Sequence record: PZ445511.1
Reading direction: 5' to 3' (one strand)
From: a phage
DNA length: 64,000 nucleotides
The notes below the pieces were generated by a model, which saw only the letters and a program-made list of their open reading frames with translations, searched no databases and was not told where the DNA came from. Positions 23,557 to 52,413 of the stretch are shown here, in pieces (position 1 is the stretch's first letter; the number at the start of each line of letters is the position of its first letter). The position numbers were made by a program, and so were the translations under genes.

Positions 23557-23795
23557 TTACTCTTTACCTCCTGCGATAATACCTAAGTTATACACGGCAA
23601 GCATATCACTAATGGTAGGATCTTGAGACTCAGAACACAGTTTAATAAACCCTTCTTCATCCCATTGCTCTACATTGCCAAACATATCCACTTTTAGTAC
23701 TACCTTATCAAGGGTAGGGGGTGCTATAATCATATCATAGAAATTCGGGTGTTGATTAGCATCAATCTCTATTTGATTAGGATCAACAAAATTAC

Positions 23796-48683: not shown

Positions 48684-48965
48684 TTAGTTCTGTACTGTAA
48701 ATTCATTCTTATCACAGTGAGCATAATAATACCCATACATACGATAAATTTTCACAGCCTTAGTAGACCCCTTCGATTCTTCATAATCAATCCAGAGCCA
48801 CTTGTCTTTACCTACATAATGTACCCGAAACTTCTTAACTTTCTTATCATTCCATGTTGCAACAACACGACGATAATCAAATCCGCCCAACCAATCTAGA
48901 GCCTTACGTTCTTCACTAGGCTCTCCAAGATGGGAAACATCTACTTTCGGAAGCAATTCGCTCAT
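48684..48965 (-). CDS. Hypothetical protein
   Basis: 93-aa ORF preceded by an early promoter (48975-49025). Confidence 0.4.
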   Translation of the reverse strand: MSELLPKVDVSHLGEPSEERKALDWLGGFDYRRVVATWNDKKVKKFRVHYVGKDKWLWIDYEESKGSTKAVKIYRMYGYYYAHCDKNEFTVQN

Positions 48966-49063
48966 AGCTTTCTCCTCTCAAATTTATAAATCAATTATAC
49001 ATAAGTTTTAGCTCGAAAGCAAATAAAATAAAAGCCAGGTCGACTAGCAACCTGGCTGATTCA

Positions 49064-50938
49064 TTATTTAGCGCGAATGTCTTGATGTTTCACTCGACCC
49101 ATAACCTCATGTTGTTTACCTGGGTTAAACGGACGAGCACCTGGATTTCCAAGATATCCACAAACTCGACGAGTTACCTCAAGAGTCTCAGGATCATGAT
49201 TGCCACAAATTGGGCATTTGAAACCATCCTCAGAAGCTATAGTTTCACCCAAGAACCCACATTCCCCACAAGAGTCTACTGGAGTATTAATACCGAAGTA
49301 ATGAACTTTACTTGCAGCATAGTTAATAACCCATTCCAGTGCATCAGGGAATCGTTTCATATCAGGCAATTCCACATAGGAAATGCACCCACCAGAAGCA
49401 ATTGGGGTAAAGTTAGACTCATAATCGAACTTCACGTTCGGAGCAACCTTACGCTCCACATCAAGGTGATGAGAGTTAGTGTAATATCCTTTAACCAGAA
49501 TATCTTCATGCTCTGGGAAATACTCACGATCTAGACGACAGAAGCGATCACATAGAGATTCAGATGGTGTAGCATACAGACTATACCCTAATTGAGTCTC
49601 TTCCTTCTTCTGATCAGCACGATCACGCATGTATTGTAGCACACGTTGAACGAACTTGATACAGGATTCAGACATTGTATCTACATCTTTACCAAACATG
49701 AACTGTAACATTTCGTGGCAGCCAATATATCCTAGAGATACAGAAGCACGCTTGTAGAAATGATCAAATACATATTCATCTGGCCCCAGACGTAATCCAA
49801 AGGCTCCTGACATATAGAGGATGGGCGCAGCTTTAGCTTGAATGTACTTTAAGCGATCAACCCTCCACTCCAATGCTTTTAACGCGGTATCCACACGCAG
49901 CTCAAGCAGATCGAAGAATAGATCAATATTACCTTCCGCTTCGATAGCAATTCGAGGTAGGTTTACAGAAACAACGCCTAAGTTGTTACGACCAGAAGTT
50001 TCACCATCTTCCGCAGCAGCCAGGAATGAACGACAGCCCATAGAGACTTTGTAGTCTCCCGTAACTTCTACAACCTTATCATAACTGATGTAGTCAGGAT
50101 ACATACGTTCAGCAGTACATTTCATAGCTAACTTCTTGATATCATAGTTAACATCACCAGGTTTCATGTTTACGCCATCACGCAAAACAAATACCAGTTT
50201 AGGGAAGATAGCTGTACGTTTATTGATACCCAAACCATCCATACGCACTTCTAGGATTGCTTTCTGTACAAGACGTGCTTCCCAAGAAGTTCCTAGACCA
50301 AACCCAAAGGTAATAAACGGACTTTGACCATTAGAGTTGAACATCGTATTGATTTCATACTCCAGGCCCTGACAGGCATCGTAAACTTCTTTCTCAGTCA
50401 TTTCCGTAGCCATTACAGATGCTTTAGCTTCATCCTTAGTCCAACGCTTTGCAAACGCATGATTCTTATCATAAGACTTACGAACATAAGGAGCCAATAC
50501 TTCATCTAATCGGTCTACAGAAGTACCCCCATATTGATGTGAACTAACCTGAGTGATAATCTGAGCTGTGATAGCAGCCGCAGTAGTAATAGAGTTTGGT
50601 GTACTGATTTCAGCATTACCAACCTTCATACCATTCTTCAACATATCTTCCAAAGCAACCAGGCAACAGTTAGTCATACCTAACGCAGCGTAATCAGCAT
50701 CATGGAAGTGAATATCACCAATCATGTGAGCATTTCGAATCTGGATTGGCATTTCTTCCAGAATCAGATGTTTACTCAATTCCCCTGCAAGCATGTCCCT
50801 TTGTGTAGGGAAACGTTCGCTTGGTTTGTTCGCATTATTAAAGAGTAGCTCTTCATCTGCTGATCCTTCGATAATTTCTTTGCAGTTTCGAATTAAGGAC
50901 TGCACTCCTTTATACTTTAGTTCTTCATTGAGATTCAT
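49064..50938 (-). CDS. nrdD: Anaerobic ribonucleoside-triphosphate reductase (class III)
   Basis: 624 aa; C-terminal Cys4 zinc ribbon (CGECG...CPICG) and glycine-radical motif RVCGYLG. Confidence 0.9.
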   Translation of the reverse strand: MNLNEELKYKGVQSLIRNCKEIIEGSADEELLFNNANKPSERFPTQRDMLAGELSKHLILEEMPIQIRNAHMIGDIHFHDADYAALGMTNCCLVALEDMLKNGMKVGNAEISTPNSITTAAAITAQIITQVSSHQYGGTSVDRLDEVLAPYVRKSYDKNHAFAKRWTKDEAKASVMATEMTEKEVYDACQGLEYEINTMFNSNGQSPFITFGFGLGTSWEARLVQKAILEVRMDGLGINKRTAIFPKLVFVLRDGVNMKPGDVNYDIKKLAMKCTAERMYPDYISYDKVVEVTGDYKVSMGCRSFLAAAEDGETSGRNNLGVVSVNLPRIAIEAEGNIDLFFDLLELRVDTALKALEWRVDRLKYIQAKAAPILYMSGAFGLRLGPDEYVFDHFYKRASVSLGYIGCHEMLQFMFGKDVDTMSESCIKFVQRVLQYMRDRADQKKEETQLGYSLYATPSESLCDRFCRLDREYFPEHEDILVKGYYTNSHHLDVERKVAPNVKFDYESNFTPIASGGCISYVELPDMKRFPDALEWVINYAASKVHYFGINTPVDSCGECGFLGETIASEDGFKCPICGNHDPETLEVTRRVCGYLGNPGARPFNPGKQHEVMGRVKHQDIRAK

Positions 50939-50967
50939 TACACCCTCCTTCTCTAATTAAGACTACT

Positions 50968-50996
50968 ATTATAACTCATTCGAAGGCGGATGTCAA
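50968..50996 (-). promoter_or_regulatory. Consensus sigma70 promoter for nrdD
   Basis: TTGACA, 17 nt, TATAAT on the - strand; GAAGGAGGG RBS downstream. Confidence 0.6.
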
Positions 50997-51188
50997 CAAT
51001 ATTTTACCATAAAGTTCTGTAACATGATCTGAGTCAAAAAATTTTATTTGCCAACCTCTATTAAAAATAGTATAATCACACGCCCGTGTACGCGATATAA
51101 AATGATTATCTAGTACCATACATCTCCCAATAAAAGCAAGTAAATTTTTTATTTAAAAGCAATATCATGGGTTTATTTAAAATTATAC

Positions 51189-51217
51189 TTGCTTTTTGCT
51201 GTAAACCTTGTTATAAT
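51189..51217 (+). promoter_or_regulatory. T5-type early promoter upstream of phoH
   Basis: A/T-rich upstream region, TTGCTT, 17 nt, TATAAT. Confidence 0.55.
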
Positions 51218-51284
51218 ATATTTGTAAGTTGATAAACAAGATCTCTTTGTTGATCCTCTGTTAGAAGCGAAGTACACTATAGGA

Positions 51285-52046
51285 GTGTTATTTATGGGAA
51301 AAGCACGTCAAAAAAGAGAGAACCGCAATGGTTCAAGAAAGCGTGGCAACAAGTATGAGAGTAACGTAATTCAAGCAGATTTCTCTGGTGATTACGCCAA
51401 TCCAGTTGCTAAATCCCTAGTTGGTAAAAACCGTGAGCAAAAATCATATATCAATATGATCAAGAACAACACAGTGACTGTGGGTATTGGTGAACCAGGT
51501 ACTGGTAAAACCTTTATTCCGTCCGTTCTTGCAGCTCAGGAACTCGTAGACATTCACTCAGATATTGAGCAAGTGATCCTCGTGCGTCCGAACGAACCTC
51601 TAGGTAAATCTCTTGGTATGCTCCCAGGTGATCTGGCAGAAAAGCTAGAGCCTTGGTTGGAACCAATAGCCGATGGCATGAAATGGGCAATCGGTGATCA
51701 CGCCTACAAAGGATATGTCGAACGTCAGAAAATTAAATTCCTGGCTATCGAACATGCCCGTGGCCGAACTTTCAACAACTCCTATGTAATTGTCGATGAA
51801 GCTCAGAATATCTCCGTTGAAGCAATGATCTGTCTCCTGACTCGTGTAGGACAAGATTGTCGTTTAATTATCTGTGGGGATATAGCGCAGAAAGACATCA
51901 AGGGTGATTCAGGTCTAGCACTTCTTATGGAAGTCTATGAGAAGTATGAAAACTCTCCTTTCTCTATGATCGAACTGATCGACAACGTTCGCTCACCAGA
52001 GTCTAAAGCATTCTACGATATCTTTAAGGATATGGGGAAGGTGTAA
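51285..52046 (+). CDS. phoH: PhoH-like ATPase
   Basis: Walker A GEPGTGKT and Walker B IVDEAQN. Confidence 0.85.
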   Translation: MLFMGKARQKRENRNGSRKRGNKYESNVIQADFSGDYANPVAKSLVGKNREQKSYINMIKNNTVTVGIGEPGTGKTFIPSVLAAQELVDIHSDIEQVILVRPNEPLGKSLGMLPGDLAEKLEPWLEPIADGMKWAIGDHAYKGYVERQKIKFLAIEHARGRTFNNSYVIVDEAQNISVEAMICLLTRVGQDCRLIICGDIAQKDIKGDSGLALLMEVYEKYENSPFSMIELIDNVRSPESKAFYDIFKDMGKV

Positions 52047-52047
52047 T

Positions 52048-52290
52048 ATGGGAAACGTCGTACATCTGCACCGCAAAACTAAGATTCACCGTACTTCACT
52101 GAGTGCTGCTAATATGATTACACGTAAGGAAGGGGAAGAAAGTCCTAAGACTACCCTAGCGTGGAAAATTGTAGCCTCTAATCCAAATCGGCCTTTTAAT
52201 TATAACGAATTGAGTACTTCTATAGACATTCTTATGGCTAAGGAAATACGACAGAAACTAACTGATATGACCGATAAACTTAAATGGTAA
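52048..52290 (+). CDS. Hypothetical protein
   Basis: 80-aa ORF coupled to phoH, followed by a terminator. Confidence 0.4.
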   Translation: MGNVVHLHRKTKIHRTSLSAANMITRKEGEESPKTTLAWKIVASNPNRPFNYNELSTSIDILMAKEIRQKLTDMTDKLKW

Positions 52291-52297
52291 GACAGAC

Positions 52298-52331
52298 GAG
52301 CCTGGGTATGAAAATATCCGGGCTCTTTTTA
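52298..52331 (+). terminator. Rho-independent terminator
   Basis: GAGCCTGG-loop-CCGGGCTC hairpin followed by TTTTT. Confidence 0.6.
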
Positions 52332-52413
52332 TCTGTAAAATTGTACTTGCAAAATGACCCAAAACAAAGTAGAATATTTCCTAAATCCTGATAACTACAA
52401 AAAGGAAAGCCAA

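What the first reader, a model, noticed from the sequence alone, without database searches (positions are those of the whole stretch)
49064..51040. nrdD without a linked nrdG activase, with a consensus promoter and a candidate FNR half-site pair
Class III RNR needs the radical-SAM activase NrdG (CxxxCxxC motif), and no such ORF is present anywhere in the window, so either the host activase is used or nrdG lies elsewhere. nrdD has a perfect TTGACA-17-TATAAT promoter (50968-50996, - strand). About 27 nt upstream of the -35 element is an imperfect palindrome, TTGAC-TCAG-ATCAT (51024-51037), matching the FNR consensus TTGAT-N4-ATCAA at 8 of 10 positions. That would tie phage nrdD to host anaerobic regulation, as for E. 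coli nrdDG.
Basis: partly seen in the sequence, partly recalled or inferred. Interest (0 to 1): 0.45.

Follow-up and report, generated by a model that had tools for sequence, protein, structure and literature searches.

The report
T5-like phage nrdD lacking nrdG
This is the ordinary, already described anaerobic ribonucleotide reductase gene of a T5-like Salmonella/E. coli phage: it sits behind a strong constitutive promoter, has no activase gene of its own (true of the whole phage family), and the proposed oxygen-sensor (FNR) site is a chance-level match that relatives do not conserve.

Summary
nrdD (49064-50938, minus strand, 624 aa) is an intact class III reductase without an ATP-cone. The TTGACA-17-TATAAT promoter (50996-50968) is real and is the only 12/12 match in the window. 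It is kept at 11-12/12 in 24 of 26 T5-like relatives compared, and T5's GenBank record annotates a promoter directly upstream of nrdD. No nrdG exists in the window, in the 98-99% identical complete genome of Salmonella phage PMBT36, or in phage T5. Record counts indicate that the whole T5-like family lacks it, and Dwivedi et al. (2013) already noted that many phages carry only nrdD.

The FNR idea does not hold up:
- The 8/10 palindrome (51024-51037) is one of 85 equal-or-better matches in 64 kb.
- It lies at about -69.5, not the usual -41.5.
- It sits in front of a consensus promoter that should need no activator.
- It is lost in T5 itself and in all diverged relatives that keep the promoter.

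The best model is a monocistronic early gene (promoter to terminator) under strong purifying selection (dN/dS about 0.02). Its product would be activated by host NrdG, so oxygen control would be post-translational. That step is inferred, not shown. Verdict: ordinary and already known.

The parts
49064..50938 (-). nrdD: class III (anaerobic) ribonucleoside-triphosphate reductase catalytic subunit, 624 aa, without an ATP-cone
   Evidence: The ORF is listed. NCBIfam PRK09263 scores E 1e-252 and covers model positions 89-706 of 712. TIGR02487, Pfam NRDD and Gly_radical also match. Identity to E. coli NrdD residues 90-705 is 52.6%. The RRVCGYLG glycyl loop, the CGEC...CPIC zinc ribbon, and the TNCCLV and MGCRSF cysteines are all present. 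dN/dS is 0.018-0.030 against 10 relatives.
50944..50949 (-). Shine-Dalgarno AGGAGG, 5 nt upstream of the nrdD ATG
   Evidence: Read directly from the sequence. Conserved in the alignment of relatives.
50968..50996 (-). nrdD promoter, perfect sigma-70 consensus TTGACA-17-TATAAT; predicted start near 50961
   Evidence: Found. It is the only 12/12 site in the 64 kb window. It scores 11-12/12 at the same position in 24 of the 26 T5-like loci; the two exceptions carry a different nrdD 5' end. The T5 record AY543070 annotates an nrdD promoter directly upstream of the gene, at the corresponding place. The transcription start has not been mapped.
49033..49057 (-). intrinsic terminator directly after the nrdD stop codon, which makes nrdD monocistronic
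   Evidence: A 10-bp stem with 6 GC pairs followed by TTTATTTT. T5 records annotate a terminator, and then a new promoter, at the same place.
51024..51037 (.). imperfect palindrome TTGAC-TCAG-ATCAT (8/10 to the FNR consensus), centred about -69.5 from the nrdD start and about -52.5 from the divergent promoter's start; judged a chance or lineage-specific match
   Evidence: Found. Present in 12 of the 27 fetched loci (26 T5-like), all of the window's promoter type or close to it. Absent in the T5 type and in all diverged relatives.
51048..51076 (+). divergent promoter TTGCCA-17-TATAAT reading towards phoH-nrdA-nrdB, back to back with the nrdD promoter (51 bp between the two -35 hexamers)
   Evidence: Scores 11/12. 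Its -35 element is conserved in position in all relatives. T5 records annotate two promoters on the phoH side.

Best explanation
The region is the standard nrdD transcription unit of a T5-like phage (family Demerecviridae; the promoter type is shared with Epseptimavirus records).

Shown by sequence and comparison:
- A perfect sigma-70 promoter, a strong ribosome-binding site, an intact nrdD and an intrinsic terminator form a single-gene unit.
- This unit is divergent from the phoH-nrdA-nrdB genes.
- The enzyme has every catalytic signature of a class III reductase, lacks the ATP-cone, and is under strong purifying selection.
- The phage family encodes no NrdG.

Inferred:
- The host RNA polymerase transcribes nrdD constitutively with the other genes of this block (T5's early region), without any oxygen-responsive factor.
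- The protein becomes active only where host NrdG already made by the cell, SAM, a flavodoxin system and formate are available and oxygen is absent. From textbook knowledge, host nrdDG is FNR-induced and T5 degrades host DNA early.
- Oxygen control would therefore be post-translational and borrowed indirectly from the host. It would not be wired into the phage promoter.
- The TTGAC-N4-ATCAT palindrome is a fortuitous or lineage-specific sequence in the AT-rich spacer between two back-to-back promoters.
For: Identity of the phage and the gene:
- The window is 98-99% identical to Salmonella phage PMBT36.
- NrdD family membership and motifs are confirmed.
- dN/dS is about 0.02.

Promoter and terminator:
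- Both are present, and the promoter is conserved in relatives.
- T5 records annotate a promoter directly upstream of nrdD and a terminator directly after it.
- Strong sigma-70 promoters are typical of T5 genes (PMC7472727).

Absence of nrdG:
- tblastn with E. coli and T4 NrdG finds nothing in the window, the whole PMBT36 genome or the whole T5 genome (best E 0.2-2).
- No T5-like locus has nrdG within 4 kb of nrdD. The one non-T5-like locus, L031, has it directly downstream.
- Collection arithmetic: 2910 phage records carry nrdD and 2273 carry nrdG. For Salmonella phages 398-126=272, against 271 T5-like records. For Escherichia phages 1055-928=127, against 130.
- Dwivedi et al. [quoted passage not shown] Compatibility with host NrdG:
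- The last 40 residues ending at RVKH are 72.5% identical to E. coli NrdD, against 50% for T4 NrdD, which has its own NrdG. Over the full length T4 is the closer one (58.8% against 55.8%).
- The zinc domain is thought to contact the activase (PMC4493059).

Against a role for FNR.
Against: - Activation by host NrdG is inferred, not shown. From memory, and not verifiable in the paper library, T4 NrdD expressed in E. coli needed T4 NrdG. If so, cross-activation is not automatic.
- The host-like C-terminus is also shared by L031, which carries its own nrdG, so that argument is only modest.
- Three distinct upstream haplotypes (the window type, L008 and L017) keep TTGAC-N4-ATCA(A/T) at the same distance from the -35 element. 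L017 differs in the spacer and the right flank, and two of the three variants reach 9/10. This is weakly suggestive of a real binding site.
- The transcription start is predicted, not mapped. A start 2 nt further downstream would place the site at -71.5, a class I position by the textbook rule.
- The discriminator AGTAGT differs from the ATATT reported for mapped T5 early promoters.
Confidence: 0.72

Rival explanations
1. The palindrome is a real FNR site used in one sub-lineage of T5-like phages. Bound at about -70, FNR would boost nrdD as a class I activator. Bound at about -52.5 of the divergent promoter, it could also hinder alpha-CTD/UP-element contacts and turn down phoH-nrdAB. From memory, FNR represses E. 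coli ndh from -50.5 in this way. The result would be an anaerobic switch between the two reductases.
For: - The match is 8/10, with TTGA-N6-TCA intact.
- Variants with 9/10 occur in L008 (TTGACTCAGATCAA) and L017 (TTGACTAAAATCAA). L017 keeps the position while its spacer and right flank differ.
- The right half-site ATCA(A/T) is kept in all four close haplotypes, including the T5 type.
- With the start uncertain by +/-2 nt, the centre could be -71.5.
- A non-T5-like phage locus (L031) has a perfect TTGATTTTAATCAA box in front of nrdD-nrdG, so FNR control of phage nrdD is not absurd.
Against: - The match occurs at chance frequency: 85 sites in 64 kb, against 59 expected.
- The perfect consensus promoter leaves little for an activator to do, in contrast to the E. 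coli nrdD promoter at 8/12.
- The position is not the -41.5 used by 19 of 23 FNR-activated promoters.
- The left half-site is lost in the T5 type, and the whole site is lost in all six relatives with 72-74% identical NrdD, which keep both promoters.
- The whole 100-bp promoter region is equally conserved within the sub-lineage, so conservation there is not specific to the site (compared with dS of about 0.7).
- In E. coli only 63 of 187 predicted high-quality FNR sites are occupied in vivo.
- A second phoH-side promoter lies downstream and would bypass any repression.
Confidence: 0.09
2. The phage NrdD is activated by something other than host NrdG. Candidates are another host glycyl-radical activase such as PflA, or an unrecognised phage protein.
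For: - The closest complete genome also encodes a GrcA/YfiD-like glycyl-radical protein with no activase.
- The gene two ORFs downstream of it (phrog_4499, T5.055) carries a CxCxCxxC motif and gives a very weak tblastn hit to the cluster-binding region of T4 NrdG (E 1.5).
Against: - phrog_4499 proteins are about 90-100 aa with a highly basic N-terminus. That is too small for a radical-SAM fold. They match no Pfam family.
- No radical-SAM or NrdG similarity exists anywhere in two complete genomes.
- From general knowledge, glycyl-radical activases are usually specific for their substrate enzyme.
Confidence: 0.06
3. The phage nrdD is a non-functional or decaying passenger gene that is never activated, which would be why no activase is kept.
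For: - The T5 record AY543070 has a 50-aa in-frame deletion that removes the conserved ASVSLGYIGCHE segment.
- L028 is truncated at 440 aa.
- Mobile endonuclease genes are inserted next to nrdD in some relatives.
Against: - dN/dS is 0.018-0.030 across ten relatives, with dS up to 0.8.
- All catalytic and zinc-binding residues are kept, even at 72% identity.
- The other T5 record, AY587007, has the full 624-aa gene, so the deletion belongs to one stock.
- The consensus promoter and the ribosome-binding site are conserved.
Confidence: 0.04

Closest known systems
nrdD of bacteriophage T5 and other Demerecviridae (T5.099 in AY543070; SPC35, EPS7, Stitch, S147, PMBT36)
   Same: - Same gene and same place: divergent from phoH-nrdA-nrdB and followed by small ORFs and a Sir2-like gene.
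- A promoter directly upstream and a terminator directly downstream are annotated in T5.
- No nrdG.
- DNA is 97-100% identical to many Salmonella and Escherichia phage records.
   Different: Nothing essential. The upstream spacer haplotype carrying TTGAC-N4-ATCAT is that of the window's sub-lineage. T5 has TTAGCACAGATCAA plus an 18-bp insertion.
E. coli nrdDG operon and its FNR/NrdR-controlled promoter
   Same: The catalytic subunit is homologous (52.6% by tblastn, 55.8% by pairwise alignment). The glycyl-radical C-terminus is very similar.
   Different: - E. coli has an ATP-cone, a co-transcribed nrdG, a 9/10 FNR box plus a second box overlapping the -35 region, a weak core promoter (8/12) and two NrdR boxes.
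- The phage has none of these. It has a consensus promoter instead.
Bacteriophage T4 nrdD-nrdG (class III RNR with its own activase)
   Same: A phage-encoded class III reductase that lacks the ATP-cone, about 52% identical.
   Different: - T4 carries nrdG close downstream, with mobC between the two genes, and a group I intron in nrdD.
- Its C-terminal tail is less host-like: 50% against 72.5% identity to E. coli over the last 40 residues.

Membership tests
Class III ribonucleotide reductase catalytic subunit (NrdD) | Scores above the curated family threshold over the full catalytic core | tested here: met
   NCBIfam PRK09263 scores 840.6 bits against a cut-off of 657, and TIGR02487 scores 587 against 326. 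Pfam NRDD scores E 1e-172.
Class III ribonucleotide reductase catalytic subunit (NrdD) | C-terminal glycyl-radical loop (RVxGY), four-Cys zinc ribbon and active-site cysteines | tested here: met
   RRVCGYLG, CGEC...CPIC, TNCCLV and MGCRSF all align with the E. coli residues. Pfam Gly_radical scores E 1e-22.
Class III ribonucleotide reductase catalytic subunit (NrdD) | Cognate radical-SAM activase NrdG encoded in the same genome | tested here: not met
   tblastn with E. coli and T4 NrdG against the window, the complete PMBT36 genome and the complete T5 genome gives a best E of 0.2-2. No family match was found for the neighbouring ORFs. This concerns the system, not the identity of the protein.
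Class III ribonucleotide reductase catalytic subunit (NrdD) | Glycyl radical formation and formate-dependent NTP reduction | not testable with these tools
   Needs anaerobic biochemistry or EPR. Only purifying selection (dN/dS about 0.02) speaks for activity.
FNR-activated promoter | Binding site close to TTGAT-N4-ATCAA and rarer than chance | tested here: inconclusive
   The match is 8/10. There are 85 equal-or-better sites in the window, against 59 expected.
FNR-activated promoter | Site centred at -41.5 (class II) or at -61.5/-71.5... (class I) from the transcription start | tested here: inconclusive
   The centre is at -69.5 from the start predicted 7 nt after the -10 hexamer. It is not -41.5, and it is 2 nt off a class I position. 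The start has not been mapped. The position statistics come from PMC3688515.
FNR-activated promoter | Sub-optimal core promoter that depends on the activator | tested here: not met
   The phage promoter is 12/12 consensus with a 17-bp spacer. The E. coli nrdD control reaches 8/12.
FNR-activated promoter | Site conserved in orthologous promoters | tested here: not met
   The site is present in 12 of the 27 fetched loci (26 T5-like). It is lost in the T5 type and in all relatives with 72-74% identical NrdD, which keep the promoter.
FNR-activated promoter | FNR binding and oxygen-dependent transcription | not testable with these tools
   Needs a footprint or gel shift, and reporter assays.
T5-type strong sigma-70 promoter | -35 and -10 hexamers with 17-bp spacing, correctly placed before a gene, conserved in relatives and annotated in T5 | tested here: met
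T5-type strong sigma-70 promoter | ATATT discriminator reported for mapped T5 early promoters | tested here: not met
   The discriminator here is AGTAGT. The consensus is from PMC7472727. The second phoH-side promoter does have TATAAT-ATATT.
NrdR-regulated nrd promoter | Tandem NrdR boxes (acaCwAtATaTwGtgt) about 31 bp apart | tested here: not met
   No box with 3 or fewer mismatches lies near nrdD or nrdA. The E. coli control finds both boxes at -208 and -177.

The most novel reading that the evidence does not exclude
In the sub-lineage that carries TTGAC-N4-ATCA(T/A), host FNR binds in the 51-bp spacer between the back-to-back nrdD and phoH-nrdAB promoters. Under anaerobiosis it tilts expression from the aerobic class Ia reductase towards the class III reductase. 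This would be a phage-borne oxygen switch built on a host regulator, working alongside dependence on host NrdG.
Probability: 0.07. Interest if true: 0.45.

Novelty: already known. Interest (0 to 1): 0.13.

Why it matters
It matters little beyond correct annotation. The gene arrangement is already in the literature, and the T5 GenBank records annotate the promoter and terminator. The absence of nrdG was noted in general terms in 2013. The one open biological question is whether a widespread phage family (several hundred records here) really relies on the host's NrdG to arm its own anaerobic reductase. If so, the phage's anaerobic dNTP supply would depend on what the host had expressed before infection. 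That is testable with simple host knockouts, and it bears on using T5-like phages in the anoxic gut.

Tried and rejected
1. nrdG remnant downstream of nrdD. E. coli NrdG residues 87-108 give a weak tblastn hit (E 0.2) to the 93-aa ORF 48684-48965. There is no Pfam or NCBIfam support. The ORF belongs to phrog_7953, of unknown function. Treated as chance.

2. Extra ORF between the promoter region and nrdD in PMBT26 (L007 3865-4536). It has T5orf172/treble-clef zinc-finger domains and looks like a homing endonuclease. It is not an activase.

3. CxxxCxxC scan of all open frames of 50 aa or more. The window has only an antisense frame. PMBT36 and T5 have a phrog_4499 ORF (CxCxCxxC) near the GrcA-like gene. 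It is too small for a radical-SAM fold and matches no Pfam family.

4. NrdR boxes and a CRP site in the intergenic region: none.

5. Rfam scan of 48900-52400: nothing meaningful. Repeat scan of the intergenic region: only AT-rich repeats on the phoH side.

6. The two perfect FNR-consensus boxes at 23752-23786 as better candidates. They lie in ancestral coding sequence and occur only in close relatives. Judged coincidental.

7. Literature on cross-activation of phage NrdD by host NrdG. Nothing was retrievable in the held library.

Full report
**What the window is.** The 2.4 kb around the finding is 100% identical to several Salmonella phages (PMBT36, S147, polluks). It is at least 80% identical to 443 of 445 matching phage records, almost all Salmonella or Escherichia phages of the T5 type. 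The whole window aligns to PMBT36 at 98-99% identity. It therefore comes from a T5-like phage (Demerecviridae). The annotated relatives with the same promoter type belong to Epseptimavirus.

**The gene.** ORF 49064..50938 on the minus strand (624 aa) is NrdD.
- NCBIfam PRK09263 scores 840.6 bits against a cut-off of 657. The match covers only model positions 89-706 of 712. Pfam NRDD and Gly_radical also match.
- The protein is 52.6% identical to E. coli NrdD residues 90-705. It lacks the N-terminal roughly 90 residues that form the ATP-cone, as T4 NrdD also does.
- The glycyl loop RRVCGYLG, the CGEC...CPIC zinc ribbon, and the TNCCLV and MGCRSF cysteines are all present.
- Against ten relatives, dN/dS is 0.018-0.030, with dS up to 0.8. 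The gene is under strong purifying selection.

**The transcription unit.**
- TTGACA-17-TATAAT lies at 50996..50968 on the minus strand.
- AGGAGG lies at 50949-50944, 5 nt before the ATG.
- A strong intrinsic terminator (49057..49033) follows the stop codon directly.
- nrdD is therefore monocistronic, which already rules out a co-transcribed downstream nrdG.
- The promoter is the only 12/12 match in the 64 kb window.
- It is kept at 11-12/12, at the same distance from the ATG, in 24 of the 26 T5-like loci fetched. That includes six whose NrdD is only 72-74% identical. The two exceptions (L018, L026) carry a different nrdD 5' end.
- Both T5 GenBank records annotate a terminator directly after nrdD. 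AY543070 also annotates an nrdD promoter directly upstream.
- A divergent promoter, TTGCCA-17-TATAAT (51048..51076, plus strand), points to phoH-nrdA-nrdB. The two -35 hexamers are 51 bp apart.

**No activase.**
- tblastn with E. coli NrdG and T4 NrdG finds nothing in the window, in the complete PMBT36 genome or in the complete T5 genome (best E 0.2-2).
- The small ORFs next to nrdD match no Pfam or NCBIfam family.
- Among the 27 fetched loci, only L031 has nrdG, directly downstream of nrdD. L031 is not T5-like (its NrdD is 57% identical).
- Across the phage collection, 2910 records encode a NrdD and 2273 encode a NrdG.
- The surplus matches the T5-like records almost exactly. For Salmonella phages 398-126=272, against 271 T5-like records. 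For Escherichia phages 1055-928=127, against 130. The absence looks family-wide.
- This is already in the literature. Five tests argue against function.
1. *Frequency.* There are 85 sites with 2 or fewer mismatches in the window, against 59 expected from shuffles. One in this 346-bp intergenic region is unremarkable.
2. *Position.* With the start predicted 7 nt after the -10 hexamer (50961), the centre is -69.5. It is -52.5 relative to the divergent promoter's predicted start. In E. coli, 19 of 23 FNR-activated promoters have the site at -41.5 +/-4, and only one is at -60.5. Only 63 of 187 predicted good sites are bound at all (PMC3688515).
3. *Need.* A 12/12 promoter has no obvious need for an activator. 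The real E. coli nrdD promoter has a 9/10 box (TTGAGCTACATCAA), a second box over the -35 region, and a core promoter of at most 8/12.
4. *Conservation.* The site occurs in 12 of the 27 fetched loci. The T5 type has TTAGCACAGATCAA, with the left half destroyed, plus an 18-bp insertion. All six diverged relatives have unrelated sequence (TTTTGTTAA...TGTwAC) although they keep both promoters.
5. *Other host control.* There are no NrdR boxes, while the E. coli control shows both.

In fairness, two variants (L008, L017) reach 9/10, and L017 keeps the half-sites while its spacer and right flank differ. The start is not mapped either. I therefore keep about a 9% chance of a real, lineage-restricted FNR site.

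**How it most likely works.**

*Shown:*
- the gene, its signals and its conservation;
- the lack of nrdG.

*Inferred:*
- nrdD is made constitutively with the other genes of this block, T5's early region. Strong sigma-70 promoters are typical of T5 genes (PMC7472727).
- It is armed by host NrdG that the cell made before infection. Oxygen dependence would then come from activase availability and the oxygen sensitivity of the glycyl radical, not from the phage promoter.

*Modest support:* the last 40 residues are 72.5% identical to E. coli NrdD, against 50% for T4 NrdD, which brings its own activase. Over the full length T4 is the closer one. The zinc domain is thought to contact NrdG (PMC4493059).

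*Caveats:* L031, which has its own nrdG, shares the same tail. My recollection that T4 NrdD needs T4 NrdG in E. coli could not be checked.

**Comparison and novelty.** This is the known nrdD of T5-like phages. It differs from E. coli nrdDG in lacking the ATP-cone, nrdG, a convincing FNR box, NrdR boxes and a weak promoter. It differs from T4 in lacking nrdG and the intron. Nothing here is new except the untested but plausible dependence on host NrdG.

**Verdict.** Ordinary and already described. The FNR reading is not supported.

Noticed in passing
window 23752-23765 and 23773-23786: Two perfect FNR-consensus palindromes (TTGATTAGCATCAA and TTGATTAGGATCAA on the plus strand) lie 21 bp apart, between the dut stop codon and a 58-aa ORF. 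They lie in what is coding sequence in relatives (VDPNQIEIDANQ) and occur only in close relatives such as SE3, not in T5, Sw2, Spc35 or IrmaTschudi. Only 13 viral contigs in IMG/VR hold such a pair. Probably coincidental.
   Followed up: partly
window about 23800 (3' end of dut): A 4-nt AAGT duplication relative to five other T5-like phages shifts the frame at the dut stop. The small ORF downstream, which overlaps dut in relatives (85-90 aa), starts here only at ATG 23733 (58 aa).
   Followed up: partly
L002 35051-35419 (PMBT36 80051-80419, outside the window); T5.056 in L054 27656-28024: A 122-aa GrcA/YfiD-like glycyl-radical 'spare part' protein (Pfam Gly_radical E 5e-18, motif RVSGYAVRF). 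It is a second glycyl-radical protein in a genome with no activase, and may be linked to formate supply for NrdD.
   Followed up: partly
L002 35501-35800; T5.055 in L054 27263-27574: An ORF of about 100 aa (phrog_4499, function unknown) lies two ORFs downstream of the GrcA-like gene. It has a very basic N-terminus and a CxCxCxxCGNPRK motif, and gives a very weak tblastn hit to the cluster region of T4 NrdG (E 1.5). It is too small for a radical-SAM enzyme.
   Followed up: partly
L019 / L055 3961-5685 (T5 AY543070) compared with L057 481-2355 (T5 AY587007); L028: One T5 record has a 50-aa in-frame deletion in NrdD that removes the conserved ASVSLGYIGCHE region (574 aa). The ATCC 11303-B5 record has the full 624 aa. 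L028 is truncated at 440 aa. Individual stocks appear to lose nrdD function.
   Followed up: partly
L007 3865-4536 (PMBT26); L018 and L026 around 3985: In PMBT26 a T5orf172/treble-clef zinc-finger ORF, which looks like a homing endonuclease, is inserted just upstream of nrdD and overlaps it. In L018 and L026 nrdD has a different N-terminus and only a 10/12 promoter.
   Followed up: partly
L031 3880-3893 and 3923-6279: A non-T5-like viral contig carries nrdD followed directly by nrdG. A perfect TTGATTTTAATCAA box lies about 50 nt upstream of the start codon, with no consensus -35 hexamer. This is what an FNR-controlled phage nrdDG would be expected to look like.
   Followed up: partly
window 51078-51089: A GC-rich inverted repeat, ACACG-CC-CGTGT, lies directly after the -10 hexamer of the divergent phoH-side promoter. 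GC-rich CGCG/ACGTG-type sequence is kept at this spot in all T5-like relatives, within an otherwise AT-rich spacer. It could be an operator or leader element, or be related to the GCGC nick-site motif annotated in T5.
   Followed up: no
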